Assembly (NCBI GenBank): GCA_964408235.1 | Contig: CAYOYN010000001.1 | Span: 77,450-141,449 of the forward strand | DNA length: 64,000 nucleotides | Reading direction: 5' to 3' | From: Candidatus Woesearchaeota archaeon | GTDB lineage: Archaea > Nanobdellota > Nanobdellia > Pacearchaeales > GW2011-AR1 | Shown: in pieces, positions 39,440 to 62,729 of the stretch | Position numbering within the stretch: position 1 is the first letter of the stretch | How the letters are laid out: every line of letters begins with the position of its first letter | Notes under the pieces: model-generated | Told to the model about the DNA's origin: nothing | Seen by the model: the letters and a program-made list of their open reading frames with translations, nothing else | Database searches by the model: none | Translations under genes and position numbers: made by a program

Positions 39440-39511
39440 TGGCCCCACGCAGACTCGAACTGCGAATTACTCGGTGTAAACGAGTCGTTTGAACCCTTAG
39501 ACTATGGGGCC
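39440..39511 (-). tRNA. tRNA-Val (anticodon UAC)
   Basis: Reverse complement folds as a cloverleaf. Acceptor GGCCCCA/TGGGGCC. Anticodon arm ACTCG-TTTACAC-CGAGT (U33, anticodon TAC, A37). T-arm CGCAG-TTCGAGT-CTGCG. Discriminator A. No CCA encoded. D-stem has one mismatch. Confidence 0.65.
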
Positions 39512-39572: not shown

Positions 39573-39644
39573 GCGCGGGTAGTATAGTGGTTAGTATACG
39601 ACGTTGCCAACGTTGTGGCCCGGGTTCAATTCCCGGCCCGCGCA
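39573..39644 (+). tRNA. tRNA-Gly (anticodon GCC)
   Basis: Acceptor GCGCGGG/CCCGCGC. D-arm GTAT-loop-(G)TAT. Anticodon arm CGACG-TTGCCAA-CGTTG (U33, GCC, A37). T-arm CCGGG-TTCAATT-CCCGG. Discriminator A. 72 nt, no CCA. Confidence 0.8.
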
Positions 39645-39645: not shown

Positions 39646-39784
39646 CATACCTTTCGCGCATCTTCATGCGAACTATTTGATTGTCGCGAACTTTTCTAGA
39701 GGAATTGCATATCATCGATAGCTTCCAATGTATCCGTTCACTCTCGACAATGCTTAAAAGTAAACGAGATCAGACATTAAGTCG

Positions 39785-41754: not shown

Positions 41755-43226
41755 ATATCTAACCCATTTAGATCTTTTATTATCTCCTCTTCTAACTCCA
41801 AGATTTTCTTCTTCAAAACTTCAGGTTTCTCATACTTTTGCTCTTCGTATTCATCTTCCTTATATTTTGAGATGGTTAAGTCAAACTCATTATCTTCAAT
41901 TTCCTTAGTCGAAACAAAGAAGTGTTTCTTTTTTCTATTAGTATTATCTTCTTCATATCTATTAGAGAATCTTTCAATTATATCAGGAATGTCATTCTTA
42001 TCAGGTTGAGGAGTTCTTTTGTCATCAAAACTATAACCGTCAGCTTGCATTTTATAAAACCAAACTTTCTGCGTAGGTTCTCCTTTTTGGAATATTAAGA
42101 TAGCAGTTTGTACTCCTGCATACGGCTTGAAAACTCCGGAAGGCATAGAAATGACTGCATCTAACCTACAGTCTTTGATAAGCAACTTTCTAATGTCTTT
42201 ATGAGATTTAGAATTACCAAATAAAACTCCTTCTGGAACAATGACTGCGCATCTTCCCGTAGGCGCTAATACTTGACGGATTAGTTCTAAAAATAATAGT
42301 TCTGTCTTCTTTGTCTTAATTTTAGACAGCCTATCACTTATTTCAGCCTCATTTATACTTCCCTTGAAAGGAGGATTCGCAAGGACTACATCAAACATGT
42401 TTACCGCTAATTTATCCTCTCCAATTTTTGATAATGTGTTAAGCCTATCTATCTTAGGCTTTTGTAAGCCGTGCATTATAAGATTCATTAAAGCTATTCT
42501 AGTCATAGTCTCATCAATATCATATCCCCAAATTGAATCGTTATCTAAGATTTCTTTCTGTTTTTGAGTTAAAGTACTAACGCCGTCTTTCTTATTGTTC
42601 TCGAGAATATATTCATAAGAGTTAACCAAAAATCCTCCAGTTCCACAAGCAGGATCTAAAATAGTCTCACCATATTTTGGTTTAACAAGATCAATCATCA
42701 TCTTGATTATGTGCCTAGGAGTTCTGAATTGTCCATTCTTACCTGAACTTTGTAACTCGCTTAGAAGATACTCATAAATGTCTCCTTGTGTATCTCGATT
42801 CTGTTCTTTAATATGCATATCGTTGATGATATTGACTGCTTCTATCAAGAGTGAAGCGGTAGGGATACCAAAATTGGCATTTTTCATATATTGAGCGTAA
42901 AGAGAATTTTCTCCGCCTAAATTTCTCATAAATGGAAATACCTTATCTCTAACGTGATCTAATATTTCCTGAGCAGGAAGGCCAGTCCATTCGTTCCATT
43001 TACAATTCTCGTGTCCTTCAAAAATAGATTTATGTTTCTTTCCCATAAAAGAAGCTTCTTGTACTTTTTTATTATCTTCGTCTTCCAATTTCTTCATAAA
43101 TATGAGATAAGACATCTGCATGATTGCTTCTATCGGGTTAGTCAATCCTCCAGACCAGAATCTATCCCATAGCTTTCTTATTTGTGATTTGAGTGTTGCG
43201 TCTAACATGTTAATAATGCCCTCCAC
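41751..43226 (-). CDS. hsdM: Type I restriction-modification system, DNA methyltransferase subunit M
   Basis: N6-adenine MTase motifs: motif I (LDPACGTGGFLV), motif IV (NPPF in VLANPPFKGS). HsdM N-terminal domain. Confidence 0.9.
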   Translation of the reverse strand: MEGIINMLDATLKSQIRKLWDRFWSGGLTNPIEAIMQMSYLIFMKKLEDEDNKKVQEASFMGKKHKSIFEGHENCKWNEWTGLPAQEILDHVRDKVFPFMRNLGGENSLYAQYMKNANFGIPTASLLIEAVNIINDMHIKEQNRDTQGDIYEYLLSELQSSGKNGQFRTPRHIIKMMIDLVKPKYGETILDPACGTGGFLVNSYEYILENNKKDGVSTLTQKQKEILDNDSIWGYDIDETMTRIALMNLIMHGLQKPKIDRLNTLSKIGEDKLAVNMFDVVLANPPFKGSINEAEISDRLSKIKTKKTELLFLELIRQVLAPTGRCAVIVPEGVLFGNSKSHKDIRKLLIKDCRLDAVISMPSGVFKPYAGVQTAILIFQKGEPTQKVWFYKMQADGYSFDDKRTPQPDKNDIPDIIERFSNRYEEDNTNRKKKHFFVSTKEIEDNEFDLTISKYKEDEYEEQKYEKPEVLKKKILELEEEIIKDLNGLDI

Positions 43227-43623
43227 TATTTCGAGTTGAAAAGTAAATTATTATAAAAATAACAACCAGTGCTGCTGAGCCTATTAAGAATATTCCTGGG
43301 AAAGTTTCATTCCAAAATCTATCAGAGGCAGCTATTTCTGCTAACTGGGCTTGCAATTTCCTATCTTGAATTTGTTGATTTAACCTTTCAACTATCGAGG
43401 TGTCTTTCGTTCTAAAACATAATCTATTTCCTTCGGTTTGAGTATAACTTACTTGAACTCCCTGTGCAGCTACCGAGATATCCGACCGACTTATATCTTC
43501 AAAACAATATTCTGGACCATTCAAGACTGTTTGAAACCATCCATCAAAACCCTGGTAGATACTGCTTCCAAAGAAGAATAAAGCAATTAATCCGCCAGCG
43601 ATTAACAACATCTTTAGATTCAT
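43210..43623 (-). CDS. Small membrane protein inserted between hsdM and hsdS
   Basis: 137 aa. N- and C-terminal TM helices. Overlaps both neighbours. Confidence 0.5.
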   Translation of the reverse strand: MNLKMLLIAGGLIALFFFGSSIYQGFDGWFQTVLNGPEYCFEDISRSDISVAAQGVQVSYTQTEGNRLCFRTKDTSIVERLNQQIQDRKLQAQLAEIAASDRFWNETFPGIFLIGSAALVVIFIIIYFSTRNSGGHY

Positions 43624-44753
43624 GATACTAGTCCTCCATTAAACGCTTTTTGCATTAATGAATTGAACATTTCCCCAATATAATCTTTGTTCTTTAGTTG
43701 TTTTTCTTTCATTTTTTCAACATGTTCAATAATTGCAGCAAATTTATTTTGAAGTTCTATTGGAGGAAGAGGTATTTTTAGAGCCTTTATCTGTTTCAAA
43801 TAAAGACCTCTAACTGTTGCAGTATTGGTTCCTCCAATCATATAAGAAGTCATATTTGGTAAAGAAAGCATAGACTCGACAAATCTAGGGTTTACCTTTG
43901 TTTTATTTAATTTGAGTAAAGCCACACTTCTAGCAAATACAAATTTATCTTTTACATCAATTCTTTTTACTCTTCCAATTGTTCCAACACAAGTAATCAA
44001 TATATCATTAAATTCTGGTAGACATCTACGTGTTATTGAACTATAAGTTTCCTCAGTAACGAATGAGTTAACCTCGAGATTTATTGAATTATTAATGTCT
44101 TTAGCAGAAATGTAGGGGATGCCTTCATCAACTAGATTCGGAGTTGAATGTTCACCATCAGTTACCTTATTACAAATTTCTTCTACTGTACTGACTCTCC
44201 ATTTTTTTTTATTGTGTAATGGATCTCCAAACATCTCATAAAACATACTCTTCTGATATTCATGTGTAAATTTATCTGCCATTTCTCTTTTTTGTTTTAA
44301 GGCTTCAGCTTTTTCGAGAATTGCGACTATTTTATTTTGGGTTTCGATAGGGGGAAGTAAAATACTAAGGTCCTTTAGAAATTTGTAATGCCTACTATAT
44401 CCGGCCGAAGGTATGTCTGCCTTTCTCAGAGCATAGTAAAAATACTTACAATGAATATTATCCTTAGGAACTAATATTTTAACTCCATCCGCTCCAATTG
44501 CAAATGGAAAATCAACAAATTTTAGAATTCTAGTGTGATCTCCAAATACTACGACTGGAAGTTTGCCTGAGTAGACTTTAGAATTATCATTGGTGTATCC
44601 GGCAATAAAATTTTCTCCTTGATCAATGATAGGATATTCACCATTATCTAGAAATTCACTTTGCGGAATTTTTAATTTATTTTCAGACGCTTCTCCTTCT
44701 AAACAATCTAAAAAATCTTCTTTCTTCCAGCTAAGTTCTTTTTCAGTTTTCAT
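43620..44753 (-). CDS. hsdS: Type I restriction-modification system, specificity subunit S
   Basis: Two target-recognition halves, each followed by conserved helical repeats (QNKIVAILEKAEALKQKR / QNKFAAIIEHVEKMKEKQ). Confidence 0.85.
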   Translation of the reverse strand: MKTEKELSWKKEDFLDCLEGEASENKLKIPQSEFLDNGEYPIIDQGENFIAGYTNDNSKVYSGKLPVVVFGDHTRILKFVDFPFAIGADGVKILVPKDNIHCKYFYYALRKADIPSAGYSRHYKFLKDLSILLPPIETQNKIVAILEKAEALKQKREMADKFTHEYQKSMFYEMFGDPLHNKKKWRVSTVEEICNKVTDGEHSTPNLVDEGIPYISAKDINNSINLEVNSFVTEETYSSITRRCLPEFNDILITCVGTIGRVKRIDVKDKFVFARSVALLKLNKTKVNPRFVESMLSLPNMTSYMIGGTNTATVRGLYLKQIKALKIPLPPIELQNKFAAIIEHVEKMKEKQLKNKDYIGEMFNSLMQKAFNGGLVS

Positions 44754-46761: not shown

Positions 46762-49497
46762 TTATTGGATCCTTATACGTTCTACCTGCTTGATAATAGT
46801 ATCAAGCTGTTCAGGAGTGAATTTCTCAAGAGGTCTTTCATCAGCTAAAGGATAGGAAACAAGGTCCTTCTTATCAAGGTGTTTGTTTATAGCAAAGAAA
46901 GAAGCTAGAATTCTTAAAAACTGAATTTGGTCAGCATTGTACTCTTTATTCTTCACAATAATAAGCCCATCAAATTGTCTTCTGATTTCCTCTTCTGGGT
47001 TAGGCAAGTCATGGAGTTCTAAAATATTTCTTAGGAACATAACAAAGTCTTGATTTTTTTGAATGTTTTCCAGAGACCATTGAGAGTTAAGTTTAGAAAG
47101 ATCTTGCGATATTTGTAAGAGTTCTTTCCAGGTAACTCCTTCTTTTGCCATCTTAGAAACAAGAGGATTCTGCTTAAACTTTTCAAAGGCAGGATTTTCT
47201 TTGATCTCCATTTTTGACCGCTCAATATTTAATATAAAGTCTGGAGCATCTACCTTGAGAATACGATTTCTCTCTTTTTCATAGAAGATCATTAATGGGG
47301 CTATCTCACGTATCAAGAAATCAATATCTTCAAAACTTATTTCTTCCCAGAAACTATCTTGCAAGACTTTTATGATCTGTTCTGATTTTCTCTTTACAGT
47401 TTCTAAGTTTGTTGCCCAGACACTTTCAACTCTTTTTTTAACAAAATCTTTTTCTTTATCTATGGCTTCAAGGTTACTTTCTTTAACGTATTTGAAGAGC
47501 TCTGTACAATGTAAAATAAACGTCTGAACTCTGCCATCTCCAAACTCAGAAAACTTTAACAGAGGAGCAACTTCATTCTTTAGTTCTTGTATATGTTCTT
47601 CTAAGTTATATTTCTTAGAAACTACTTTCTTAATCATCTCAGCTTTCGGTTTAACAATAAAAGACTTCTGGTCTATCTTTGATAATTCTCCGACTATTCG
47701 AGTTTCAATAATTTTTTTTTCTTCAGGACTTAATTTTTTCTTAAGAAGCTCCAACTCTTTTTCAAATATTTTTATCCTAACATCTTCTGTTAATTTCTTG
47801 TTATCGGAAGTTTCTAGTTTATGTTCTTTAACATTAGAATAATCTCCGAACTTAAAATCGAATATTCTGAAGTCTTTCTTATCATGAACATCATCGAAAA
47901 CAGGTAACCATTTAATTCCTTGAGGATTACTTATCGCAGATTGGTTTCTTGTTCCTCTACCAACCATTTGCCAAAATCTGATGTAAGAAAAAACAGGTGT
48001 AACAAATACAAGATTGCAAACTTCGGGAATATCAACACCAGTATCAAGAACTCCAACCGAAAGAGCTATTCTGGGGCTGGATTCTTTTTGGAATCTTTCA
48101 ACAGCATCCATATATCGATCATAACGAGAAACTATTACTTCTACGTCTTTTGCCTCAACATTGGGATATAATCGTTTGAAAGTGCCTCTTAAAGCTTCAG
48201 CATGCTTCACATTAATGCAGAAGAAAATAGTTTTACACGGCTTACCATCATCAGACTTATAACATCGATTCATAAACTCAGTGACAATTAAAGAGTTAGT
48301 TTTCTCATCAGTAAAATGCTTAACGAATTTTGTTCCAGGAATCTCAAAGTGTTCTGGATCTTCATCTTGCTTAATCAAATTTGTCTTAAGTTCTTTATCT
48401 AAGTCCATTCCTCTAATTCCTAATCCAAGAACTTTTGTTTCGATAACCTGGGCATCATAAGGGACAAGAACAGCATCTTTAACTGCTTCGTCATAACTAT
48501 ATTCAACAGTAGGTTTTCCTCTTTCACATTCAAATAAATCATAAGTGTTTTTTGCTTCGCTCTTTGAAGGTGTTGCAGTTAGTCCTATATTAAGAGAATC
48601 GAAATATTTCATCACTAGATTTTGCCTATCATAATAAGATCTATGTGCTTCATCAAATACTATTAAATCAAAAAATCCTGGTCCAAATTTTTGAAAATAA
48701 AATCCTCCTTCAGGACTTTTAGCCATTAGAGTTTGAACTGTTGAAACATATATTCTTTTATCTTTAGAAAACTCTTGTTCATTTAACAAACAAGCAGGCT
48801 CACTATGAAGAAATTTCTGGAATCCCTTATAGAAAGCATTTCTACCTAAAGAGATTCTATCCACAACAAACAATACATTTTGAACACGTTTAGCTCTAAT
48901 AAGAGATTCGATAATCGCAACAGCAACTCTTGTTTTTCCAGTTCCGGTTGCCATATTAATTAGAGCTTTTCTGTGCCCTAAACTGAAGTGTTCTAAAGTT
49001 CTTCTAGTAACTTCTATTCCTTTAGATCTATCAACAATGTTAGTATTAACTTCTAGTTTCAAGAGATCTTTTTTATTTTTGTATAAATCATACTTTCTCT
49101 TGAGATCTTTTTGGGAAAATGGTCCGGCAACTTCTCTTAATCCATAATCCTTTTCTTTAATATACCATTTCTTACCATTAGTAAGAAATATTGGAATCGG
49201 ATAACCTGTTTGGGCTTCCACGTCTTTTTGATAAGTTGTTGCTTGAATAACTCCCTTCTCTGCGTCTAACGAAAATCTTTTAGCTTCTATAACTGCTAAA
49301 GGAGTGTTATCTTCCCAAACAAGTAAGTAGTCCATGAACCTTCCTGAAGCATCTTTAAAATAATATTCGAATTTTCCAACTTTGAACTTAGAAGAAACAG
49401 AATTAACTTCTTTCTTAACATATTTATCAAGCCATCCTTCTTCTTTTAGGAGTGGATCAATGTGCCTTTCTCGCGTTTCTTTCTCGGATAGGTCCAT
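46762..49497 (-). CDS. hsdR: Type I restriction enzyme, R subunit (helicase-nuclease)
   Basis: N-terminal PD-(D/E)xK (LLVWED...VIEAKRF). Walker A (ATGTGKTRVAVA). DEAH-box (VFDEAHRS). SF2 helicase motifs (TATP, QMVGRGTR). Confidence 0.9.
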   Translation of the reverse strand: MDLSEKETRERHIDPLLKEEGWLDKYVKKEVNSVSSKFKVGKFEYYFKDASGRFMDYLLVWEDNTPLAVIEAKRFSLDAEKGVIQATTYQKDVEAQTGYPIPIFLTNGKKWYIKEKDYGLREVAGPFSQKDLKRKYDLYKNKKDLLKLEVNTNIVDRSKGIEVTRRTLEHFSLGHRKALINMATGTGKTRVAVAIIESLIRAKRVQNVLFVVDRISLGRNAFYKGFQKFLHSEPACLLNEQEFSKDKRIYVSTVQTLMAKSPEGGFYFQKFGPGFFDLIVFDEAHRSYYDRQNLVMKYFDSLNIGLTATPSKSEAKNTYDLFECERGKPTVEYSYDEAVKDAVLVPYDAQVIETKVLGLGIRGMDLDKELKTNLIKQDEDPEHFEIPGTKFVKHFTDEKTNSLIVTEFMNRCYKSDDGKPCKTIFFCINVKHAEALRGTFKRLYPNVEAKDVEVIVSRYDRYMDAVERFQKESSPRIALSVGVLDTGVDIPEVCNLVFVTPVFSYIRFWQMVGRGTRNQSAISNPQGIKWLPVFDDVHDKKDFRIFDFKFGDYSNVKEHKLETSDNKKLTEDVRIKIFEKELELLKKKLSPEEKKIIETRIVGELSKIDQKSFIVKPKAEMIKKVVSKKYNLEEHIQELKNEVAPLLKFSEFGDGRVQTFILHCTELFKYVKESNLEAIDKEKDFVKKRVESVWATNLETVKRKSEQIIKVLQDSFWEEISFEDIDFLIREIAPLMIFYEKERNRILKVDAPDFILNIERSKMEIKENPAFEKFKQNPLVSKMAKEGVTWKELLQISQDLSKLNSQWSLENIQKNQDFVMFLRNILELHDLPNPEEEIRRQFDGLIIVKNKEYNADQIQFLRILASFFAINKHLDKKDLVSYPLADERPLEKFTPEQLDTIIKQVERIRIQ

Positions 49498-49543
49498 TTT
49501 ATAATGACTATTTTGTTCTATAAAAAACTATCCCACCTAGATA

Positions 49544-49861
49544 TTATTGGCTTTCTTTTACCTTACCCAATAGTAGAAAGATAGGAACAACCCCATTTTT
49601 TTCTAACTCATCAATTATCTTTCTCGATTCCTTAAATGAACGATTATAGAACATAGTATAACCAAAATTGCTCCTTTTTTCTCTAAGTTGAGGAAATAAA
49701 TCAATAATCTCTTTTTGTAATTGAATTACATTCCAAGAACCCAAGCTTTCCTTATAAGAAAGTCTTCCATTAATTTGGATAGTTTCCTTTGGTTCGAGAT
49801 ATGAGAGCATCTCGGATAAAAGCTCTTCTTTACTTTTCTCTTTTTGTAGTGTGTTCCTCAT
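49544..49861 (-). CDS. Hypothetical small protein, last gene of radical-SAM operon
   Basis: 105-aa ORF, 23 nt after the phosphatase gene on the same strand. Confidence 0.45.
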   Translation of the reverse strand: MRNTLQKEKSKEELLSEMLSYLEPKETIQINGRLSYKESLGSWNVIQLQKEIIDLFPQLREKRSNFGYTMFYNRSFKESRKIIDELEKNGVVPIFLLLGKVKESQ

Positions 49862-53350: not shown

Positions 53351-54280
53351 ATGAAGAGAAAAGTTGTAAAGCACGGAGAAGGTACTCTTACTGTCTCGCT
53401 TCCATCTAACTGGGTAAAAAATAATAATCTCAAACAAGGACAATTAGTTAATGTAGAACCTTCACGTGGAAAGCTTGTTATATCAATACAAGACAAATCT
53501 TTTGAGCCAGTAACAATTCCTTTAGAAAACGGAGGTGAATGGTATATTGGAAGAATTATTCGCCATCTATACACTTCTGGATTTGATGAAATCAATATAA
53601 AATATACTTCACCTAAACAATTACCCCAAATTAGAGAAGATCTTAGATTATTAACTGGCCTTGAATTAGTAAAGAGCGATAATAATATATGTAGGCTTAA
53701 GTGTATGGTACATACAGATGATTCAGAATATGACCAAATTGTAAGAAAGATAATGTGGATTTTACTTTCAAAGTTAGATTATTTGTTAGAAGAAGGTGAA
53801 AAAGGCAATTTTGAGATGAGTTATGAGATAAAAGAACTTCACACTACTCTATGCAGATTATGCAATTTATCAAAGCGTTTAATAAATAAAAGAGAAATAT
53901 TCGACTCTGTAAACTCAAAATATGCTTATGACTTTTTTAACGCGATTATTGAGATTTCTCTTCTTATCAACTATTCCTATGATCATCTTAATACTCAAAA
54001 GAAACCAAAATTAAGCGAATTCGAATTAAGACTCCTTAAAGAAGTAAGAGACCATTATCAAGAACTTTACAACGCGGTAGTTAATGATAAAAAAGACAAT
54101 GTACAGAAGTTCTTTGAATCAAGAAAAGGAAACTTTGAGAGTAATCTTGAACTTATTAAAAAAGAAGATCCGATAATAATCCATTATTTCCTTATGATGC
54201 TTAGGACATTAACTCCAATAGGCAACCATATAGCTATGTTAAACGTAGAAAAAGAAAGAAGGCTAGAGGCAGATAAATGA
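53351..54280 (+). CDS. SpoVT/AbrB-domain plus PhoU-like helical domain transcription regulator
   Basis: N-terminal swapped-hairpin pattern (KHGEGTLTVSLPSNW...GQLVNVEP). Long helical C-terminal region resembling archaeal AbrB-PhoU (COG0704) proteins. Confidence 0.5.
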   Translation: MKRKVVKHGEGTLTVSLPSNWVKNNNLKQGQLVNVEPSRGKLVISIQDKSFEPVTIPLENGGEWYIGRIIRHLYTSGFDEINIKYTSPKQLPQIREDLRLLTGLELVKSDNNICRLKCMVHTDDSEYDQIVRKIMWILLSKLDYLLEEGEKGNFEMSYEIKELHTTLCRLCNLSKRLINKREIFDSVNSKYAYDFFNAIIEISLLINYSYDHLNTQKKPKLSEFELRLLKEVRDHYQELYNAVVNDKKDNVQKFFESRKGNFESNLELIKKEDPIIIHYFLMMLRTLTPIGNHIAMLNVEKERRLEADK

Positions 54281-54807
54281 AACTCCTTAAAGAGTTTAAA
54301 GATCCTGATTTTAAAGAAAATTCTAATATTAAGCTTCGTGAGGCTTCAAGAGCTGTTCTTTTTGATGAAAATAATTTAGTTCCAATATTGTTTGTTGCAA
54401 GCGGGAATTTTCATAAGCTTCCAGGCGGAGGCATAGATAAAGGGGAAACTAAAGAAGATGCTTTACTAAGAGAAGCTCTTGAGGAAGTTGGAGCTAAAAT
54501 AGAAATAAAATCCGAAGTTGGTAAAATTGTAGAATATCGTTCTGATAAAAATTTCAACTGGGGATCTGATATGAAACAGATATCTTATTGCTATCTTGGA
54601 AAGATTTTGTCTAAAGGAAAGCCTCAATTTACCGAGAAAGAAATGATTGAAGAGTTTGAGTTAGTTTGGATGACTTTGGATAAATCTATTGAAACTTTTG
54701 AAAATGATAAACCCCTTAATGTTGAAGGTAAATTTATTAGAGATAGGGATTTGACTTTCTTGAAAGAAGCTAAGAAGATTTTAGATGCTCGCTTGCCCTT
54801 TCAATAA
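54277..54807 (+). CDS. Nudix hydrolase
   Basis: Nudix box GGGIDKGETKEDALLREALEEVGA (Gx5Ex7REUxEExGU). 4-nt overlap with the regulator gene. Confidence 0.8.
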   Translation: MKLLKEFKDPDFKENSNIKLREASRAVLFDENNLVPILFVASGNFHKLPGGGIDKGETKEDALLREALEEVGAKIEIKSEVGKIVEYRSDKNFNWGSDMKQISYCYLGKILSKGKPQFTEKEMIEEFELVWMTLDKSIETFENDKPLNVEGKFIRDRDLTFLKEAKKILDARLPFQ

Positions 54808-55130: not shown

Positions 55131-57434
55131 TCAATTTTTGGTGACAATCCTACTAATTATGCTTGCTAAATGTCTTTTGTCATGACATTTGCCTAATTTT
55201 GAATAACTTGTTCTTAAGTTTCTATTAGTTACAACAAAAAACCACCTATCAGGATAATTTTTATTCAAATTCTCAATTTTATTTAACAAATCTTTTTGAT
55301 TATGTTTAAGCAATTTTCCTGTTTCAACTTCAATAGCATATTCTTTCCCATCAACTTTGAAAACAATATCTGGCTTAACTGTCTCAAACATCTGTACTTT
55401 ATTTGTAAACTTCTTTATGTAGTTAAAAATATCATGGGTCATGAATATATGTTGAGGACTTTCATTATCTCTTTTTTCTATAAGATATCTTTCCTTTCTT
55501 TTTGATAAGATTCCTTGAAATGAATATGGCTTGTACCCTAAGTTTTTGAGGTAGTCTATATCTTCATCAGAGAGATCCTTTAATTTAACACAACCAATAT
55601 CCTCATCAACATTTATCTGAGTCTTTTGTCTTTTTTTCTTTTCTTTAGTTTGTCGATCCATATGCTTCTGTACTTCATCTAAACGTTCTTCCTCAGTTTG
55701 AATATGTGAATTAGCAAGCAATTCATCAGGTTTCGTGGTTATAATATTATGTTCTTCTGGAGATGAAACTATCTTTATTTCTGAATGTTCGTCATCCATA
55801 ATCAAGATTCCTTCCCCGATTCCTGCAGTAAGTAAGGAATTAACTTCTGACTCGCTTAAAAAGAAGGTCTTTTGTATATTCCTTATTACTGCTGGTTTTT
55901 GTCTCATAAGCAATGTGTAAGAGCTGTTAGCCAATACAGATTTCCCAGCTTCAGATTCAAGCATGCCTTCAACTTCTTGATTAATAAGAAATAATGCAAG
56001 GTTAAACTTTCTGCAGGTTTTTACTATCTCAAAAATGTAAGATGCATCGCTAGATTGTCTCAAAAGCGACCAAGCCTCATCAATAACAAGTAACTTTCTG
56101 TTAAGATCTCTTTTCATTTTCATATAAATATAATCAAGCACCAAAAACATCATTAAAGGTTTGATTTGTTTTGGTAGATTAGCTATATTAAAACAAACAA
56201 ATTGATTATCGAAGTTAATCTTAGTTTTTTGATTAAGGAATGAAAATACTCCGTTTACATACCAATCTAAACGGCTGGTTAAACTTCTCAAAGTTTGTTT
56301 TTCAGACATGATTGTCTTCTTTTCCATATCTTTAAGGACTTTAAGCAAATCCTCTAATAATGGAGGTTTTCTACTCCAACTCTTTACTTTATTGGCATAA
56401 ATTTTCTTTTTCTGGTAAGTTTTTGTTAGGGCTCTCTCCATAATTGCTTTTTGAGGTTCTGAAAGATCTCCAAGCATGATTGGTAAAATATCCCACAATG
56501 CGAGTCTTTTTTCAGGATAATCATGTCCCATTAAATCTAATGGATTAATTATAGTTTCAGAAATTGTGCTTAAATCGATTAATTGCCCATTAAAACGCTC
56601 AACAAGGGCTTTGTATTCTCCTTGGGGATCAATAACCATTACTTTAGTGCCATTTAGTAAATACCTTGAAATTAATAGCTTTGCCATATAACTCTTACCT
56701 GAACCAGAACTAGCCAAACATAATCCATTTGGATTACTTAGATTAAAAATATCTTTTATTATGGGAATATTATTCTTATTTTGGCCAAACCAGATCCCTG
56801 TTTTATCTGCTTGAAGGAAAGAAGAAGTAAATGGGAAGAAAGCAGATAATGCTTCTGTAGGCACACTTCTAACTTGATTTAACTTGTTAATCGCTAAAGG
56901 CGAACAAGACTGAAAACCTTGAGCCATCCTAAATGTAGGTTGCCTTGGAATAATTAGAAGAGAGTTAAGTTCTGCCTGTATCCTTCTTGTCAATAAGTCT
57001 AATTCTTCCCTATTTTTAGCCCTACAGTTAAAGTATAAACTTACATTAAACAACTTATCCTTACCCTTCTGCAAGTTTGATAAAACTGCTTTAGTGTCTT
57101 TGTATTTTATTTGCAAGCTTGGGTTAAGAATATTCTTGCTTTTAGCAGAGAATAAATCTCCTCTTTGTTTTTGGAGTTCTCTATTAAGAAAAACCATCAT
57201 AGTTTCAATGTCATATGGCTCTATGTGCATTGAAAGATCAAAATTACCTGTTGTGCTAATAATCTTATCAAGAAAGCCTGTTTCTACACTTCTTGGATAG
57301 CCATGAGCGTAAATAGTCCTATTGAGAATATTAGTATGTTCATTAGAAATACTTAGATAATTAGAAGAGTTTTCTATTTTAATTGGAAAAAAGTCTAAAT
57401 TCTCATTCTTACTTTCCTTTTTCTTCCAAAACAT
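55131..57434 (-). CDS. VirB4/TrbE/CedB-like conjugation ATPase with C-terminal PD-(D/E)xK-like domain
   Basis: Walker A (LASSGSGKSYMA). VirB4-type Walker B DEAW (LLVIDEAWSLL). C-terminal ~120 aa with D-x-n-E-x-K pattern (DIVFKVDGKEYAIEVETGK). Confidence 0.75.
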   Translation of the reverse strand: MFWKKKESKNENLDFFPIKIENSSNYLSISNEHTNILNRTIYAHGYPRSVETGFLDKIISTTGNFDLSMHIEPYDIETMMVFLNRELQKQRGDLFSAKSKNILNPSLQIKYKDTKAVLSNLQKGKDKLFNVSLYFNCRAKNREELDLLTRRIQAELNSLLIIPRQPTFRMAQGFQSCSPLAINKLNQVRSVPTEALSAFFPFTSSFLQADKTGIWFGQNKNNIPIIKDIFNLSNPNGLCLASSGSGKSYMAKLLISRYLLNGTKVMVIDPQGEYKALVERFNGQLIDLSTISETIINPLDLMGHDYPEKRLALWDILPIMLGDLSEPQKAIMERALTKTYQKKKIYANKVKSWSRKPPLLEDLLKVLKDMEKKTIMSEKQTLRSLTSRLDWYVNGVFSFLNQKTKINFDNQFVCFNIANLPKQIKPLMMFLVLDYIYMKMKRDLNRKLLVIDEAWSLLRQSSDASYIFEIVKTCRKFNLALFLINQEVEGMLESEAGKSVLANSSYTLLMRQKPAVIRNIQKTFFLSESEVNSLLTAGIGEGILIMDDEHSEIKIVSSPEEHNIITTKPDELLANSHIQTEEERLDEVQKHMDRQTKEKKKRQKTQINVDEDIGCVKLKDLSDEDIDYLKNLGYKPYSFQGILSKRKERYLIEKRDNESPQHIFMTHDIFNYIKKFTNKVQMFETVKPDIVFKVDGKEYAIEVETGKLLKHNQKDLLNKIENLNKNYPDRWFFVVTNRNLRTSYSKLGKCHDKRHLASIISRIVTKN

Positions 57435-58194
57435 TCGTCACCTCCATTTTATCTCTAGAAATAAAGAATTTTCTTACCAAAGAGTCTAATTCCAAGTCAT
57501 TTAATCTAAAACTCTTTAGTCCAATATTTGCAAGTTTGCTTTGACAAATTTGTAGTTGAATATTTATATCAGATTTTTCTAAGATTACTAGATAAAATAC
57601 TCTATTCATTACATCATTCTCTTTAGCAAGAGATTCTAATTGTCTTTTATATCCCTCAAAAAGTTCTTTGAATTTTTTAGAATCGATTAACCTTTTCTTA
57701 AATTCTTCAAAATATTCAGTAAGATTAAGCTGTTCAGTACTCATTATTATCTGGACCTTGAAGTCAAGGCTATTAAGAAATTTCTGAAATGCTATAGCAA
57801 TTGCTTGTTTAGATTCTTCTGGCTTAATTGAGAAATTAATAGGGCTTATCTTTAGAATTGCTAATTTCTTGTTGTCTTTTGTAAATATTAGACTTTCTTT
57901 TATTTCCTTAATTGGGATAAATTTGCCTAACTTATTTGGTAATTGAATTAACTTCGATTTATACCAATAATACCAGTTTCTTACATGCTTATCTAATTCT
58001 AGAAAAATAAATCCTATTCCTAGGCCACTCAACATAGAAATAATTGGTATCTTTATAGCAAGATGTAGATCTGTCTTAAAAAATATAGTAAGAATAATTG
58101 GAGCAAACACAAAAAGATAAGCTAGTTGCTTAAAGTTTAGACCAAACATTATTTTTTCTTTGTATTCTAAAGATTGAGGTATCTCATAGCCCAT
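57409..58194 (-). CDS. VirB3-like membrane protein with cytoplasmic extension
   Basis: Two N-terminal TM helices. Gene immediately precedes and overlaps the VirB4-like gene by 26 nt, the canonical VirB3 position. Confidence 0.45.
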   Translation of the reverse strand: MGYEIPQSLEYKEKIMFGLNFKQLAYLFVFAPIILTIFFKTDLHLAIKIPIISMLSGLGIGFIFLELDKHVRNWYYWYKSKLIQLPNKLGKFIPIKEIKESLIFTKDNKKLAILKISPINFSIKPEESKQAIAIAFQKFLNSLDFKVQIIMSTEQLNLTEYFEEFKKRLIDSKKFKELFEGYKRQLESLAKENDVMNRVFYLVILEKSDINIQLQICQSKLANIGLKSFRLNDLELDSLVRKFFISRDKMEVTNVLEEKGK

Positions 58195-59003
58195 TATTTA
58201 TTCCACCTTCCTACTTTATTGTAAATGCTAAATGCAGCCCTTGTAATAGCAAAAAATAACAGAACAACCATTAATATATCGATGAGGAGGAATGCTGAGA
58301 TTAAGATAATAATCTGTAAATTACTGAAAACTCCGACATTCATTAATGCTGAAAATCCAATTAATAATATTGCATCAAAGAACGTTATAAAAATCGAAAT
58401 TCCTAATATATTTAGTATCAAAGAACCAAAACCCCTTAGTTTAGGTAAAAAGTAAAAGAAAATGCCTATGGGCAAAAGAACTATGCCTATTGCAACTATC
58501 GCATACCTTAAAGTTAATACAAGAGCAGTTAAAATTAATACTGCAACGTAAACTATTCCTAAACTTAATGCTAAACCAAGCCCTATTGTGCTACTTACTT
58601 GTATGCTAAAGAAATTTTCATCAACAATATTCAATGTTGCAGAAGTCATAGAAGATGCCAGATCTAAAACTAATTGGTAGAGAAAGAATGAAGATTGAAC
58701 TAAAACAATCATTATTATGATATTTCTTATCCATTCCTTTGCTGATTCTCTTTTTTCAGAATCATAACCTGAAATAAGAAAGCTTATTCCGACTCCAACT
58801 AAAAGCAACGCATAGAACATAGAAAGCATGTAGACAATAATTACCCATAAACTCAAGAAAATCTGAGTATGAACATCTGCAGATAATAAATTAAGAACTA
58901 TTTGCAAAAATGGCTGAATTGGAGCATTAACTACGTTAAATAGAAAATTAAAGAACATCTCTGGAAGACAAGCTCCAAGATTAACTAATCCACAATTAGG
59001 CAT
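58194..59003 (-). CDS. Polytopic membrane protein (VirB6/TrbL-like candidate) containing a pilin-like motif
   Basis: 6-7 TM helices. Internal DSEKRESAKEW segment paralogous to the pilin-like gene motif SDPGKRESSKN. Confidence 0.5.
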   Translation of the reverse strand: MPNCGLVNLGACLPEMFFNFLFNVVNAPIQPFLQIVLNLLSADVHTQIFLSLWVIIVYMLSMFYALLLVGVGISFLISGYDSEKRESAKEWIRNIIIMIVLVQSSFFLYQLVLDLASSMTSATLNIVDENFFSIQVSSTIGLGLALSLGIVYVAVLILTALVLTLRYAIVAIGIVLLPIGIFFYFLPKLRGFGSLILNILGISIFITFFDAILLIGFSALMNVGVFSNLQIIILISAFLLIDILMVVLLFFAITRAAFSIYNKVGRWNK

Positions 59004-59391
59004 ATTTTCTAAAAAATGAAGTCTTAGTTAGAAATGAGAATATAATATAATTAAACAAAAGAAGGATAACTATTTTAAAAAATAAAATGAATCTACTTGT
59101 TTCTATTTCATTAAGAGAAAAAGTAAAGTTTGCTTGTGCTTGAGGATAATTTGGACCTTGAGATCCTTGGAATCCGTATTCTTGATCCCATAGAATGCAA
59201 ACCGCCTCTCTTCTTTCTTGTCCAGATGTTTGGCCCCAAATATAATTGCAATCAGCCCTCTTATCCATATTAGTAAAATTAGAGCATTTCAAGTTTGAGG
59301 GACAAGCAGTAACTACTTGCAAAGGCAATAATAAAATCAAAATTCCTATTGCAAGTAAATATACTGCTTCTCTGGTTAATGGTTTATTCAT
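58996..59391 (-). CDS. Secreted Cys-rich protein with C-terminal TM anchor
   Basis: Signal peptide. 4 Cys in the mature domain. C-terminal hydrophobic helix. Confidence 0.45.
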   Translation of the reverse strand: MNKPLTREAVYLLAIGILILLLPLQVVTACPSNLKCSNFTNMDKRADCNYIWGQTSGQERREAVCILWDQEYGFQGSQGPNYPQAQANFTFSLNEIETSRFILFFKIVILLLFNYIIFSFLTKTSFFRKYA

Positions 59392-59392
59392 G

Positions 59393-59719
59393 CTAAATCA
59401 TAAACTGCACAAACCAAGGTGCTGCCCAAATTATTGCAAGTCCAATAAACACATACATAATAGTGTTCTTTGAACTTTCGCGCTTTCCAGGGTCAGAACC
59501 ACTAGTAATGTAACTAACTCCTGCAATTACAAGCATTATAACTGCAATAAAAGTCGCAGCATACTTGATTAGATTATAGATACGTATAATTGGCTCAAGT
59601 ATTGTATTGAATGTCTGTTGCTCTTCTTGGGAGATAGTTCCATTAAACTGAGCACTGACAATCTGTAAAGCAAAGATATATGCAATAATCAAAAGGCTGG
59701 CAAGTTTTTGTACTTTCAT
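59393..59719 (-). CDS. VirB2/TrbC-like conjugative pilin candidate
   Basis: Signal peptide (ASLLIIAYIFALQIVSA). Two hydrophobic helices separated by a short polar loop. ~108 aa. Heads the transfer operon. Confidence 0.5.
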   Translation of the reverse strand: MKVQKLASLLIIAYIFALQIVSAQFNGTISQEEQQTFNTILEPIIRIYNLIKYAATFIAVIMLVIAGVSYITSGSDPGKRESSKNTIMYVFIGLAIIWAAPWFVQFMI

Positions 59720-59931
59720 TCTTCCACCTCCTTTTCAGTTGATTGTTCACGCCATTCGTCCAAGTAAGCTTTAACTTTACGAAATCTCTCTAGCTGTTCC
59801 TCGAAATCGTTTTCGTACTTCCATTTTATGAAAGTTAAACAGTTTTCGCAGAACTCTCTTTCTTTAGTTTCAGCTTCGCAGATAATGCAAATTTTCATGT
59901 CTGTGCTGTGATCTAAAATGTTTATAGGCAA
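59716..59931 (-). CDS. Small zinc-finger protein
   Basis: CIICEAETKEREFCENC (CxxC...CxxC) in 71 aa. 4-nt overlap with the pilin-like gene. Confidence 0.4.
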   Translation of the reverse strand: MPINILDHSTDMKICIICEAETKEREFCENCLTFIKWKYENDFEEQLERFRKVKAYLDEWREQSTEKEVEE

Positions 59932-60682
59932 TCGGAGACCATTTAGTCAACTAACTGGACGTCTAAGTAGTCGACTAGATAGACGCCCAGTTAGTCCCCG
60001 ATTTTTTATAACTCTCAAAAAGAGAAATCCAGTTATGGAAATGAATAAGTTAATTTTAGGCGAATGCCTGGAAGTAATGAAAAATATGCCCAATCAATCT
60101 GTTGACTTAATTATTACAGATCCACCTTACGGAGATAATATTGCTTATTATGGGAATAAAACCATAGAAAATAATGAAAATCCCTTACTAAACTGTAGGG
60201 CTTTGGTTGAAGCTTACAGAATACTAAAGAAAAATAAAACAGTTTACAACTTTACTAATTGGAAACACTTGCCTTTTCTTACAGAATTTGTTACTAAATA
60301 TACCAAATTTAAGATAAGACATGTAATTGTATGGAAAAAGCCAAACTTTGGGATGGGTTATGCTTTTAGACATCAATTTGAGCTTATTCTAGTATTGGAA
60401 AAGGGAAATCCTAAATATAACCTAACAAACTTCTCAAATGTGCAGGAATCTAAGTTTATTTCAGGTAAGTCTATCCATCCTCACCAGAAACCTTTAGATC
60501 TATTGACTAAAATGGTTAAACATAGTTCAAAAGAAGGAGATTTAGTATTTGATCCATTTTGCGGAAGTGGATCTACTTGCATTTCTGCTAAAATGAATGG
60601 TAGAAACTGGCTCGGAATAGAACTAGATCAAAAATACTTACAAATTGCTAAGGAAAGGTTAGAAGAGGATCAAAATGGATAA
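59918..60682 (+). CDS. DNA methyltransferase (beta-class N4-C/N6-A, DPPY motif); real start probably at 60035
   Basis: Motif IV DPPY (LIITDPPYGD) precedes motif I (VFDPFCGSGSTCI). Listed ORF starts at 59918, but the first 39 residues are Arg/Pro-rich and run through the dyad. MEMNKLILGECLE at 60035 is the likely start. Confidence 0.75.
   Translation: MFIGNRRPFSQLTGRLSSRLDRRPVSPRFFITLKKRNPVMEMNKLILGECLEVMKNMPNQSVDLIITDPPYGDNIAYYGNKTIENNENPLLNCRALVEAYRILKKNKTVYNFTNWKHLPFLTEFVTKYTKFKIRHVIVWKKPNFGMGYAFRHQFELILVLEKGNPKYNLTNFSNVQESKFISGKSIHPHQKPLDLLTKMVKHSSKEGDLVFDPFCGSGSTCISAKMNGRNWLGIELDQKYLQIAKERLEEDQNG
59950..59995. promoter_or_regulatory. 46-bp perfectly centred dyad: 12-bp inverted arms flanking a 10-bp palindrome
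   Basis: ACTAACTGGACG (59950-59961) and CGCCCAGTTAGT (59984-59995; 11/12 complementary) flank TAGTCGACTA (59968-59977). All share a centre at 59972.5. Lies between the divergent transfer operon and the MTase gene. Confidence 0.5.
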
Positions 60683-62565: not shown

Positions 62566-62729
62566 CTCTAAATTATTAATTTATCTTATCTCGACAATGC
62601 TTATAAATCCCAAGCATTTTTGTTGTTTGTTAAATTAGTGAACACAAATGCTCATCAGATTAGACAAAACTTGCTAGTGCACGGCCCACAATCCCAATAT
62701 TTATATACTAACTATAGTGCCTATATAAC

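What the first reader, a model, noticed from the sequence alone, without database searches (positions are those of the whole stretch)
55131..57434. VirB4-type ATPase fused to a C-terminal PD-(D/E)xK-like nuclease-fold domain
The 767-aa protein has the canonical VirB4/TrbE Walker A (GSGKS) and the family-specific DEAW Walker B. Its last ~120 residues (from FMTHDIFNYIKK to the end) show a D...E-x-K pattern (DIVFKVDGKEYAIEVETGK) with flanking basic residues, typical of restriction-endonuclease-fold domains. I am not aware of a nuclease-fold domain in bacterial VirB4 or archaeal CedB/TedB-type ATPases. It could process DNA during transfer or import, replacing a missing relaxase. No relaxase or VirD4 coupling protein is recognisable in the element.
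Basis: partly seen in the sequence, partly recalled or inferred. Interest (0 to 1): 0.65.

Follow-up and report, generated by a model that had tools for sequence, protein, structure and literature searches.

The report
VirB4 secretion motor with tethered nuclease module
A DPANN-archaeal type IV secretion ATPase carries, on a flexible tether, a conserved restriction-endonuclease-fold module that elsewhere in these archaea sits right behind integrase genes, which suggests how these relaxase-less systems might cut the DNA they move.

Summary
ORF 55131..57434(-) encodes a 767-aa VirB4-type ATPase (core residues 12-566). A variable charged linker (567-606) joins it to a conserved 160-aa C-terminal module (607-767) that matches no Pfam, NCBIfam, PADLOC or PDB sequence profile.

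All 120 closest homologues (DPANN archaea) carry the module. AlphaFold2 models are confident (pLDDT about 91) and show a small beta-alpha-beta-beta subdomain plus an alpha-beta-beta-beta-alpha-beta core. Foldseek hits are almost exclusively PD-(D/E)xK nucleases (Cdn1, Can2, Hjc, NucS, R.BspD6I), but their E-values are weak.

The invariant residues are E658, H662, D689, E702, E704 and K719, so the motif is PD...ExE.

The gene ends a conserved six-gene minimal T4SS operon with no relaxase or coupling protein, often beside a DNA methyltransferase. The same module also occurs free or anchored by two transmembrane (TM) helices, directly downstream of tRNA-flanking tyrosine integrases. One such integrase lies in this window (39785..41002).

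The best reading is a DNA-cutting module held at the motor's cytoplasmic end. Catalysis and direction of transfer are untested. I found no prior description. I rate it a new variant of a known kind.

The parts
55131..57434 (-). Full ORF, 767 aa: VirB4-type ATPase plus linker plus C-terminal nuclease-fold module
55737..57401 (-). VirB4 core (residues 12-566): part of the N-terminal domain plus the RecA-like ATPase domain
   Evidence: NCBIfam CD1110-type VirB4 7e-87 (residues 34-548); PDB 4ag5 8e-31 (residues 210-566); Pfam P-loop_TraG
56691..56705 (-). Walker A, GSGKS (residues 244-248)
56070..56081 (-). Walker B, DEAW (residues 452-455)
55617..55736 (-). Charged flexible linker (residues 567-606; 10 K/R and 9 D/E). 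It has 29% mean identity and is 20-76 aa long in homologues
55476..55616 (-). N-terminal subdomain of the module (residues 607-653), predicted beta-alpha-beta-beta. L621, Y628, L629 and E648 are conserved
55134..55475 (-). PD-(D/E)xK-fold core (residues 654-767), alpha-beta-beta-beta-alpha-beta-alpha-alpha. Invariant residues are E658 and H662 (helix 1), P688-D689 (strand 2), E702-x-E704-T-G (strand 3) and K719 (helix 2)
   Evidence: AF2 pLDDT 90.8-91.5; Foldseek hits to PD-(D/E)xK nucleases; conservation
57409..58194 (-). VirB3/PrgI-like hairpin of two transmembrane (TM) helices plus TraC-like N-terminal VirB4 domain (261 aa). It overlaps the VirB4 ORF by 26 nt and is fused to VirB4 in most homologues
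   Evidence: Pfam PrgI; PF26593 TraC-like in orthologues; TM prediction
58194..59003 (-). Polytopic membrane protein (269 aa, about 6-8 TM helices), VirB6/TrbL-like
   Evidence: TM prediction; the 79%-identical orthologue in L110 has a weak TrbL_3 hit
58996..59391 (-). Conserved 131-aa operon protein of unknown role with an N-terminal and a C-terminal hydrophobic segment; about 440 aa in some loci
59393..59719 (-). VirB2/TrbC-type T4SS pilin (108 aa)
   Evidence: Pfam T4SS_pilin 1.4e-14 and TrbC 3.6e-8
59716..59898 (-). 60-aa CxxC...CxxC (zinc-ribbon-like) first gene of the operon
   Evidence: Homologous ORFs lie at the same position in L108 and L110
60035..60682 (+). Divergently transcribed beta-class DNA methyltransferase (DPPY motif; the ORF is open from 59918, and the likely start is M at 60035)
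   Evidence: Pfam N6_N4_Mtase 3e-36; 83% identical orthologue at the same position in L110; MT-A70 at that position in L108
39785..41002 (+). c1-type tyrosine integrase next to tRNA-Gly. It belongs to the same family that directly precedes free or membrane-anchored copies of the module in other DPANN genomes
   Evidence: phmmer about 1e-159 to c1 integrases; c1 matches PHROG integrase 2.4e-15 and XerA 3.8e-4
39573..39644 (+). tRNA-Gly(GCC), the likely integration target flanking the integrase
39742..39759 (+). Left copy of the candidate boundary repeat TCTCGACAATGCTTAAAA (weak; it may be a promoter motif)
62589..62606 (+). Right copy of the candidate boundary repeat (17 of 18 identical), 22.8 kb from the left copy

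Best explanation
The protein is the motor ATPase of a minimal, six-gene type IV secretion-like apparatus of DPANN archaea. The operon runs Zn-ribbon protein, VirB2-like pilin, p131, VirB6-like channel protein, VirB3 plus VirB4 N-domain, then VirB4. A flexible charged tether of 20-76 residues at the C-terminus of the ATPase carries a 160-aa module made of a small beta-alpha-beta-beta subdomain and a restriction-endonuclease (PD-(D/E)xK) fold core. The core has an intact, invariant metal-site-like constellation: E658 and H662 on helix 1, P-D689, E702-x-E704, and K719 on the following helix. VirB4 hexamers sit at the cytoplasmic base of the T4SS channel (established knowledge from R388 and other T4SS structures). 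The tether would therefore hold several nuclease modules at the cytoplasmic mouth of the channel. I infer that they cut or nick the nucleic acid handled by the machine and so supply the DNA-processing step that relaxase plus coupling protein provide in bacterial conjugation. The same module occurs as a free protein, or as one anchored by two transmembrane (TM) helices, encoded directly behind tRNA-flanking tyrosine integrases. I read it as a dedicated mobile-DNA processing module of DPANN integrative elements. On this reading, integrase-plus-module cassettes resemble mobilisable elements, and integrase-plus-T4SS elements with the module welded to VirB4 resemble conjugative ones. What is shown: the domain architecture, conservation, predicted fold, operon composition, absence of relaxase and coupling protein, and the integrase linkage. 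What is inferred: catalytic activity, DNA as the substrate, the site of action, and the direction of transfer (export or import).
For: The VirB4 core ends at about residue 566, and the tail has no sequence-family match. The tail is present in 120 of 120 best homologues. Mean identity to the window protein is 73% for the ATPase, 50% for the nuclease core, 41% for the N-subdomain and 29% for the linker, and the linker length varies from 20 to 76 aa. AF2 gives pLDDT 91.5 and pTM 0.85 for the whole module and 90.8 for the core, with alpha-beta-beta-beta-alpha-beta topology. The top Foldseek hits in PDB and BFVD are nearly all PD-(D/E)xK nucleases, with TM-scores of 0.50-0.59 normalised to the query, probabilities up to 1.00, and a best E-value of 3.6e-4. 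E658, H662 and K719 lay outside the retrieval pattern and are nearly invariant in both fused and free forms. In the register with Hjc, PD689 aligns with PD42, E702 with E55 and E704 with K57. The operon is conserved in dozens of DPANN genomes, and no relaxase, T4CP or second large ATPase was seen. In 13 of 28 complete short-form loci the module gene lies directly downstream of a c1 tyrosine integrase, often overlapping it. c1 integrases accompany the VirB4-module in L108 and in this window, next to tRNA-Gly. The forms with two TM helices have a basic stretch after TM2, which suggests a cytoplasmic, membrane-proximal site of action. Archaeal conjugative and Ced/Ted systems have no known relaxase (PMC9905601).
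Confidence: 0.5

Rival explanations
1. Import-side nuclease. The apparatus imports host or environmental DNA (or RNA), as Ced and Ted do. The tethered nuclease degrades or fragments the incoming polymer at the cytoplasmic exit, either to feed nucleotide-auxotrophic DPANN cells or to restrict foreign DNA. The adjacent methyltransferase would protect the cell's own genome from the membrane-tethered nuclease.
For: The gene set (pilin, VirB6, VirB4, no T4CP or relaxase) is the same minimal composition as the DNA-importing Ced/Ted systems. Many operons are chromosomal, with no integrase in 10 kb of flank. A divergent DNA methyltransferase lies upstream in about 8 of 21 loci with enough flank, and it comes from two unrelated families, N6_N4 and MT-A70. 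T4SS pili are proposed to access host nucleic acid in CPR epibionts (bioRxiv 10.64898/2026.06.21.733656).
Against: This does not explain why the same module is encoded as a two-gene unit with tyrosine integrases away from any T4SS genes. The methyltransferase is absent from more than half of the loci. Conjugative elements also often carry orphan methylases.
Confidence: 0.25
2. Non-catalytic DNA-recognition or docking domain. A nuclease fold has been re-used to bind a specific DNA site or structure, or the integrase-DNA complex, and load it onto the motor. This would be analogous to the FtsK gamma domain or to inactive restriction-fold domains.
For: The canonical lysine is replaced by Glu. There is an extra N-terminal beta-alpha-beta-beta subdomain that could bind DNA. 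Co-transcription with integrases is compatible with an accessory or directionality-factor role.
Against: Six polar or charged positions that map to the classical active site are strictly invariant across more than 200 sequences, down to 33% identity. That is the pattern expected for catalysis rather than binding alone. E-x-E variants such as BamHI are active enzymes (own knowledge).
Confidence: 0.15
3. Selfish, addiction or defence nuclease that merely hitch-hikes. The module is a restriction-like toxin or defence effector of mobile islands, paired with a methyltransferase or a retron-like RT, and its fusion to VirB4 has no role in translocation.
For: The neighbourhoods are rich in defence and mobile genes: type I R-M, HEPN, AbiEii, ParE, and RT with RT-16 RNA. 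A methyltransferase is often adjacent.
Against: The fusion is fixed in every one of the 120 closest VirB4 homologues and in 70 species-level genomes, with a conserved tether architecture. No PADLOC defence profile matches the module. The RT genes are convergent with the module gene and not co-transcribed with it.
Confidence: 0.08
4. Ordinary VirB4 C-terminal region, or a chance motif or annotation artefact.
For: Short D...E-x-K-like strings are common by chance in AT-rich, Lys/Glu-rich proteomes.
Against: Known VirB4 profiles and the 4ag5 structure end at about residue 566. The tail is a separately folding, conserved 160-aa module that also exists as an independent gene.
Confidence: 0.02

Closest known systems
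VirB4/TraC/TrbE ATPases of monoderm-type (MPF-FATA; CD1110/PrgJ-like) type IV secretion systems
   Same: Walker A and B motifs. Homology over residues 12-566 (NCBIfam 7e-87; PDB 4ag5 8e-31). Operonic with VirB2-like pilin, VirB3/PrgI and VirB6-like genes.
   Different: It has an extra linker and a 160-aa nuclease-fold module at the C-terminus. No VirD4, relaxase, VirB8 or VirB1 partners were detected. Scores are below the NCBIfam equivalog cut-offs. The N-terminal VirB3/TraC-N part is a separate overlapping ORF here.
Archaeal Ced (CedA/A1/B) and Ted (TedA/B/C) DNA-import systems
   Same: Minimal T4SS derivative consisting of pilin, VirB6-like channel and VirB4-like ATPase, with no relaxase or coupling protein (PMC9905601).
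   Different: There is no significant sequence membership (NCBIfam CedD 48 bits against a cut-off of 600). Ced and Ted ATPases are not reported to carry a nuclease domain. The lineage differs (DPANN versus Sulfolobales and Thermoproteales). The direction of transfer is unknown here.
HerA-NurA and viral terminase large subunits (translocating ATPase working with, or fused to, a nuclease)
   Same: The logic is the same: an FtsK/HerA-superfamily or packaging motor is physically coupled to a nuclease that creates or processes the DNA end being translocated (own knowledge; the HerA-NurA role in archaeal DNA transfer is proposed in PMC9905601).
   Different: NurA and terminase nucleases have RNase H-like folds, not PD-(D/E)xK. 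HerA-NurA is a two-protein complex for end resection. Terminases package DNA into capsids.
PD-(D/E)xK nucleases Cdn1, Can2/Card1, Hjc, NucS/EndoMS and R.BspD6I small subunit
   Same: These are the best structural matches to the predicted core, with TM-scores of 0.50-0.59 normalised to the query. The PD and E-x-[K/E] motifs lie on strands 2 and 3 in the same register as Hjc.
   Different: There is no detectable sequence-profile relationship. There is no CARF domain. Glu replaces the canonical Lys, an invariant His lies on helix 1, and a conserved Lys lies on the following helix. The partners (VirB4, integrase, TM hairpin) are unique.
Conjugative relaxases (MOB families) and bacterial ICE/IME organisation
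   Same: The proposed function is the same: DNA processing at the secretion motor. The genomic logic of integrase plus a processing enzyme (IME-like), or those plus a T4SS (ICE-like), is also the same (the IME concept is in PMC5357655).
   Different: There is no HUH or Rep_trans fold, no catalytic-Tyr motif and no homology. Covalent attachment and oriT nicking are not implied. This is an analogy only.
SPEARE giant proteins of Nanohaloarchaeota
   Same: DPANN proteins with a VirB4/TraG-like ATPase domain for which a restriction-endonuclease domain was once claimed (PMC10266531).
   Different: In SPEARE the endonuclease claim was re-examined and rejected in that paper. Here a compact C-terminal PD-(D/E)xK-fold module is supported by structure prediction and conservation. 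The architectures are unrelated (giant Ig-repeat surface proteins versus a 767-aa cytoplasmic motor).

Membership tests
VirB4/TraC-type T4SS ATPase | P-loop ATPase domain with Walker A and Walker B, homologous to the VirB4 C-terminal domain | tested here: met
   GSGKS at 244-248 and DEAW at 452-455; PDB 4ag5 8e-31 over residues 210-566; Pfam P-loop_TraG 1e-24
VirB4/TraC-type T4SS ATPase | Score above the curated family cut-off (NCBIfam equivalog or subfamily) | tested here: not met
   Best hit is CD1110 family at 292 bits against a cut-off of 325; VirB4_CagE at 99.8 against 643. It is a divergent lineage-specific clade, not a member of any curated equivalog
VirB4/TraC-type T4SS ATPase | Encoded with other T4SS core genes (VirB2 pilin, VirB3, VirB6) | tested here: met
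   Pilin (T4SS_pilin 1.4e-14), PrgI/VirB3 and a polytopic VirB6/TrbL-like protein lie directly upstream. The same order is found in dozens of loci
PD-(D/E)xK (restriction endonuclease-like) superfamily | alpha-beta-beta-beta-alpha-beta core fold | tested here: met
   AF2 models with pLDDT about 91 give H-E-E-E-H-E-H-H
PD-(D/E)xK (restriction endonuclease-like) superfamily | Significant structural similarity to known members | tested here: inconclusive
PD-(D/E)xK (restriction endonuclease-like) superfamily | Catalytic signature: acidic residue on helix 1, (P)D on strand 2, (D/E)-x-K on strand 3 | tested here: inconclusive
   E658, P688-D689 and E702 are invariant, but the K position holds the invariant E704. 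An invariant K719 lies on the next helix and an invariant H662 on helix 1. The variant is compatible with activity (E-x-E as in BamHI, own knowledge), but activity is not proven
PD-(D/E)xK (restriction endonuclease-like) superfamily | Sequence-profile match to a described PD-(D/E)xK family | tested here: not met
   No Pfam, NCBIfam, PADLOC or PDB-profile hit. PHROG has only an unknown-function family at 4e-4
PD-(D/E)xK (restriction endonuclease-like) superfamily | Metal-dependent phosphodiester cleavage | not testable with these tools
   Requires biochemistry
Ced/Ted archaeal DNA-import systems | Homology of the ATPase to CedB/TedB (NCBIfam CedD model) | tested here: not met
   48 bits against a cut-off of 600
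Ced/Ted archaeal DNA-import systems | Minimal composition: pilin, VirB6-like and VirB4-like proteins, with no relaxase or T4CP | tested here: met
Integrative conjugative element (ICE) | Integrase plus T4SS within one delimited, tRNA-flanked element | tested here: inconclusive
   A c1 integrase lies next to tRNA-Gly 14 kb from the operon. The only boundary repeat is 17 of 18 nt. L108 has the integrase 1.3 kb from the operon, but L110 has none within 10 kb
Integrative conjugative element (ICE) | Relaxase and type IV coupling protein | tested here: not met
   No Pfam hit to relaxase or T4CP families in the window ORFs scanned or in the precomputed Pfam annotation of L108 and L110. There is no second large P-loop ORF
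Can2/Card1/Cdn1 CRISPR ancillary nucleases | CARF sensor domain fused to the nuclease domain | tested here: not met
   No CARF match was found. The region N-terminal to the core is a 47-aa beta-alpha-beta-beta subdomain preceded by VirB4

The most novel reading that the evidence does not exclude
The module is the long-sought DNA-processing enzyme of relaxase-less archaeal DNA transfer. In this reading a PD-(D/E)xK nuclease cuts the excised element or chromosomal DNA at the T4SS motor, and so functionally replaces relaxase plus coupling protein. Integrase-plus-module cassettes would be archaeal counterparts of mobilisable elements that use a resident T4SS, and the VirB4 fusion would be the conjugative version. 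This would define a new, nuclease-initiated mode of T4SS-mediated DNA transfer that is widespread in DPANN archaea.
Probability: 0.3. Interest if true: 0.85.

Novelty: new variant of a known kind. Interest (0 to 1): 0.68.

Why it matters
How archaeal conjugative elements and Ced/Ted-like systems generate and feed their DNA substrate without a relaxase or coupling protein is an open question (PMC9905601). A nuclease-fold module welded to the VirB4 motor is conserved across hundreds of DPANN lineages. The same module is independently paired with integrases. Together these give a concrete, mutationally testable candidate for that missing step. The finding also defines a new sequence family of restriction-endonuclease-fold proteins. 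It bears on how ultra-small symbiotic archaea exchange or acquire nucleic acids, and it flags a family of tRNA-targeting integrative elements in DPANN genomes.

Tried and rejected
- Sequence-family searches of the tail gave no usable hit in Pfam, NCBIfam, PADLOC, PHROGs or a PDB sequence profile.
- hhalign of the core profile against Hjc (sequence verified as 1hh1_A) was not significant at probability 1.2%. I used it only for motif register.
- The search for related loci with the tail alignment failed because no stretch was conserved enough. I replaced it with a degenerate DNA motif scan. That scan forces D689, F692, E702, E704, T705 and G706, so their invariance in the 107 loci is circular.
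- The same motif scan of IMG/VR viral contigs gave 0 hits, so a viral origin was rejected.
- I tested whether the short proteins in the representative search are merely VirB4 fragments. Many are, but about 37 loci are not, and these have no T4SS genes nearby.
- The search for att sites flanking the window's candidate element found only a 15-nt exact (17 of 18) repeat. This is not enough to delimit the element.
- I tested whether the RTs next to module genes are group II introns. Rfam gives RT-16 RNA instead.
- The first strict Walker-A scan was too stringent, because it missed VirB4 itself. I repeated it with a looser pattern.
- Literature searches for a VirB4-nuclease fusion or a DPANN T4SS description found nothing specific. 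Iyer et al. 2004 is not held in the library.
Full report
1. THE OBSERVATION

The ORF at 55131..57434 on the minus strand encodes 767 aa. Walker A (GSGKS, residues 244-248) and Walker B (DEAW, residues 452-455) are present. Three sequence comparisons place residues about 12-566 in the VirB4/TraC family:
- NCBIfam CD1110-type VirB4, 7e-87, residues 34-548 on model positions 207-729 of 752.
- PDB 4ag5 (VirB4 C-terminal domain), 8e-31, residues 210-566.
- Pfam P-loop_TraG (1e-24), DUF87 and AAA_10.

All of these matches stop near residue 566. The last 200 residues are therefore not the usual VirB4 C-terminus. Alone, the tail matches nothing in Pfam, NCBIfam, PADLOC or a PDB sequence profile.

2. 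THE TAIL IS A CONSERVED, SEPARATELY FOLDING MODULE

A search of 5.8 billion proteins returned more than 1200 VirB4 relatives. Those that carry a source name are labelled Nanoarchaeota, Pacearchaeota or Nanoarchaeia, that is, DPANN.

All 120 listed relatives carry the tail at 35-70% identity over about 160 residues. In this set, which was retrieved by whole-protein similarity and is therefore unbiased for the motif, the following are invariant or nearly so: E658, H662, D689, F692, E702, E704 (119 of 120), T705, G706, K719, W731, F733, T736 and Y744.

Mean identity to the window protein differs by region:
- ATPase domain: 73%.
- VirB4 N-terminal domain: 66%.
- Nuclease-like core: 50%.
- N-terminal subdomain of the module: 41%.
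- Linker: 29%, with length varying from 20 to 76 residues.

This is the signature of a flexible tether joining two constrained domains. The conserved lysine is K719.

3. FOLD

AlphaFold2 on a 44-sequence alignment gives a confident model (pLDDT 91.5, pTM 0.85). It shows beta-alpha-beta-beta (residues about 615-653) followed by alpha-beta-beta-beta-alpha-beta-alpha-alpha. A core-only model gives the same result (pLDDT 90.8).

- Foldseek against the PDB returns almost only PD-(D/E)xK nucleases: Cdn1, Can2, AF2093, R.BspD6I, Hjc, NucS/EndoMS, McrC, the R2 restriction-like endonuclease domain, YaeQ, RecU, MUS81 and TnsA.
- For the core alone, TM-scores normalised to the query are 0.50-0.59 and probabilities reach 0.99, but E-values are only 0.003-0.05.
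- Against BFVD (predicted structures of viral proteins), two hits pass E = 1e-3. The named hits are annotated as restriction endonuclease, VRR-NUC, endonuclease or competence protein.
- A profile comparison with Hjc is statistically insignificant, but it places P688-D689 on Hjc P41-D42, E702 on E55 and E704 on the catalytic K57. The Hjc sequence was verified as identical to 1hh1_A.

The motif is therefore E/H (helix 1) ... PD (strand 2) ... E-x-E (strand 3) ... K (helix 2). E-x-E variants such as BamHI, and lysines relocated to a neighbouring helix, are known in active members of the superfamily (own knowledge).

I consider fold membership well supported, at about 0.85. I consider catalytic competence likely but unproven.

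4. GENOMIC CONTEXT IN THE WINDOW

The gene is the last of a six-gene minus-strand operon:
- 59716..59898: 60-aa CxxC...CxxC protein.
- 59393..59719: VirB2/TrbC-type pilin.
- 58996..59391: conserved 131-aa protein.
- 58194..59003: polytopic VirB6/TrbL-like protein.
- 57409..58194: VirB3/PrgI hairpin plus TraC-like N-domain, overlapping the VirB4 ORF by 26 nt.
- 55131..57434: VirB4 with the tethered module.

A beta-class DNA methyltransferase is transcribed divergently at 60035..60682.

No relaxase or coupling protein was detected. Pfam scans of the surrounding ORFs found none. The only other P-loop ORF downstream of 39 kb is a 209-aa AAA_28-like protein.

Fourteen kilobases away, next to tRNA-Gly (39573..39644), lies a 405-aa tyrosine integrase (39785..41002). 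Type I R-M genes lie in between.

The only candidate boundary repeat is a 17-of-18-nt match at 39742 and 62589. That is too weak to delimit an element.

5. CONTEXT ELSEWHERE

A degenerate DNA scan for the two motifs in one genome per GTDB species found 107 loci. Almost all are labelled DPANN, and several genomes hold two or three copies. None was found in IMG/VR viral contigs.

Seventy loci are VirB4 fusions, usually about 900-1060 aa with VirB3 also fused. These show the same pilin, p131, VirB6-like, VirB4 order.

A methyltransferase lies upstream in about 8 of 21 loci with enough flank. It belongs to two unrelated families: N6_N4 in the window and L110, and MT-A70 in L108.

Thirty-seven loci encode the module without a VirB4 core and without T4SS genes nearby. 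These are either about 150-210-aa free forms, or 270-430-aa forms with two N-terminal TM helices and a charged coiled linker.

In 13 of 28 complete short-form loci the module gene lies directly downstream of a roughly 390-aa protein, c1, on the same strand and often overlapping it. c1 is a tyrosine recombinase (PHROG integrase 2.4e-15; archaeal XerA 3.8e-4).

Independent contigs reproduce the integrase-then-module pair. In L113 the pair is inserted among housekeeping genes and the integrase gene overlaps a tRNA gene.

The window's integrase is a c1 member (about 1e-159). So is the integrase 1.3 kb upstream of the VirB4-module operon in L108.

E658, H662 and K719 were not part of the search pattern. 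They are invariant in both fused and free forms.

6. MECHANISM

Shown: a VirB4 motor of a minimal T4SS with no relaxase or coupling protein; a tethered, conserved PD-(D/E)xK-fold module with an intact polar constellation; and the same module paired with integrases or anchored to the membrane.

From established knowledge, VirB4 hexamers sit at the cytoplasmic base of the channel. The tether would therefore place several modules at the channel mouth. In the two-TM forms the basic residues follow TM2, which also predicts a cytoplasmic, membrane-proximal location.

Inferred: the module cuts or nicks the nucleic acid that the machine moves. This would supply the processing step for which archaeal conjugation and Ced/Ted systems have no known enzyme (PMC9905601). 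Integrase-plus-module cassettes would then resemble bacterial mobilisable elements, and T4SS elements with the fused module would resemble conjugative ones.

I put this reading at about 0.5. The rivals are:
- An import-side degradative or restriction role, with the methyltransferase protecting self DNA (0.25).
- A non-catalytic DNA-docking domain (0.15).
- A hitch-hiking selfish or defence nuclease (0.08).
- Chance, or the ordinary VirB4 C-terminus (0.02 or less).

7. COMPARISON AND NOVELTY

The ATPase is a divergent VirB4 and scores below all NCBIfam equivalog cut-offs. In composition the system resembles Ced/Ted, but it is not a sequence member of those families.

The module belongs to no described PD-(D/E)xK family at the sequence level. 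Conceptually, the coupling of a motor to a nuclease recalls HerA-NurA and viral terminases, which use different nuclease folds.

An earlier claim of a restriction-endonuclease domain in DPANN VirB4-containing SPEARE proteins was rejected by later authors (PMC10266531). That case is unrelated to this one in architecture.

I found no description of this fusion in the searchable literature. That library omits many subscription papers.

Verdict: a real, conserved and apparently undescribed variant of a known kind of system. Interest is 0.68.

Noticed in passing
window 39573-41002: A c1-type tyrosine integrase (39785..41002, +) lies 140 nt downstream of tRNA-Gly(GCC), with tRNA-Val divergent at 39440..39511. 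It has no Pfam hit, but it is about 1e-159 to a DPANN integrase family (PHROG integrase, XerA-like) that elsewhere directly precedes free copies of the nuclease module.
   Followed up: yes
window 39742-39759 and 62589-62606: A direct repeat TCTCGACAATGCTTA[A/T]AA (17 of 18) occurs 22.8 kb apart. It brackets the integrase, type I R-M genes, T4SS operon and methylase. It may be attL/attR of an integrated element, or a shared TATA-like promoter motif.
   Followed up: partly
window 57409-57434: The VirB3/PrgI plus TraC-N ORF (57409..58194) and the VirB4 ORF overlap by 26 nt in different frames. Most homologues (about 990 aa) have the two fused, while the closest clade (P0001-P0014, L108, L110) keeps them split. 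The split therefore looks like a genuine, conserved gene fission with probable translational coupling and not a sequencing error.
   Followed up: partly
window 59716-59898 (-): A small 60-aa CxxC...CxxC (zinc-ribbon-like) ORF is the first gene of the T4SS operon. Homologous 61- and 62-aa ORFs occupy the same position in L108 and L110. Its function is unknown.
   Followed up: partly
window 59918-60682 (+); L108 6813-7388; L110 6753-7406: A DNA methyltransferase is divergently transcribed upstream of the operon. It is N6_N4_Mtase (DPPY) in the window and L110 but the unrelated MT-A70 family in L108. This non-homologous replacement at the same position suggests a functional link with the nuclease-bearing operon. 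The likely true start of the window gene is 60035, not 59918.
   Followed up: partly
L108 12439-14182; L112 6693-8015; L113 10638-11923: Reverse-transcriptase genes (Pfam RVT_1), each with an upstream Rfam RT-16 RNA motif (RF03019, 66-104 bits), lie convergent and immediately 3' of module-bearing genes. This holds for both the free forms and the VirB4 fusion. RT genes also neighbour the module in L055, L076, L082 and L094. No such unit is present in the window.
   Followed up: partly
Proteins P0127, P0132, P0142, P0151 and others; loci L045, L056, L057, L060: A membrane-anchored architecture of the same module exists. It has two N-terminal TM helices, a Lys/Glu-rich coiled linker of 60-150 aa, and then the module. 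It is often encoded right after the c1 integrase.
   Followed up: partly
window 41751-49861: A complete type I R-M system lies between the integrase and the T4SS operon: hsdM 41751..43226, hsdS 43620..44753 and hsdR 46762..49497. A 105-aa protein (49544..49861) is 64% identical to a protein beside the otherwise dissimilar type I R-M system in L108.
   Followed up: partly
L014, L020, L044, L015, L054, L067-L069: Contigs with the typical DPANN VirB4-module or free module are labelled Babeliales bacterium, Bacteroides sp., 'bacterium' or Methanosarcinales in their MAG records. This is probably mis-binning or mis-labelling and not true occurrence outside DPANN.
   Followed up: no
L008/L026/L071; L013/L073; L036/L037; L024/L051; L016/L046: Several single genomes carry two or three copies of the module, either VirB4-fused, short, or both. 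This fits spread by mobile elements.
   Followed up: no
window 53351-54280 (+): An AbrB/MazE-like N-terminal domain protein of 309 aa and a NUDIX hydrolase (54277..54807) are the convergent downstream neighbours of the VirB4 gene. The downstream side of the operon is not conserved among loci.
   Followed up: no
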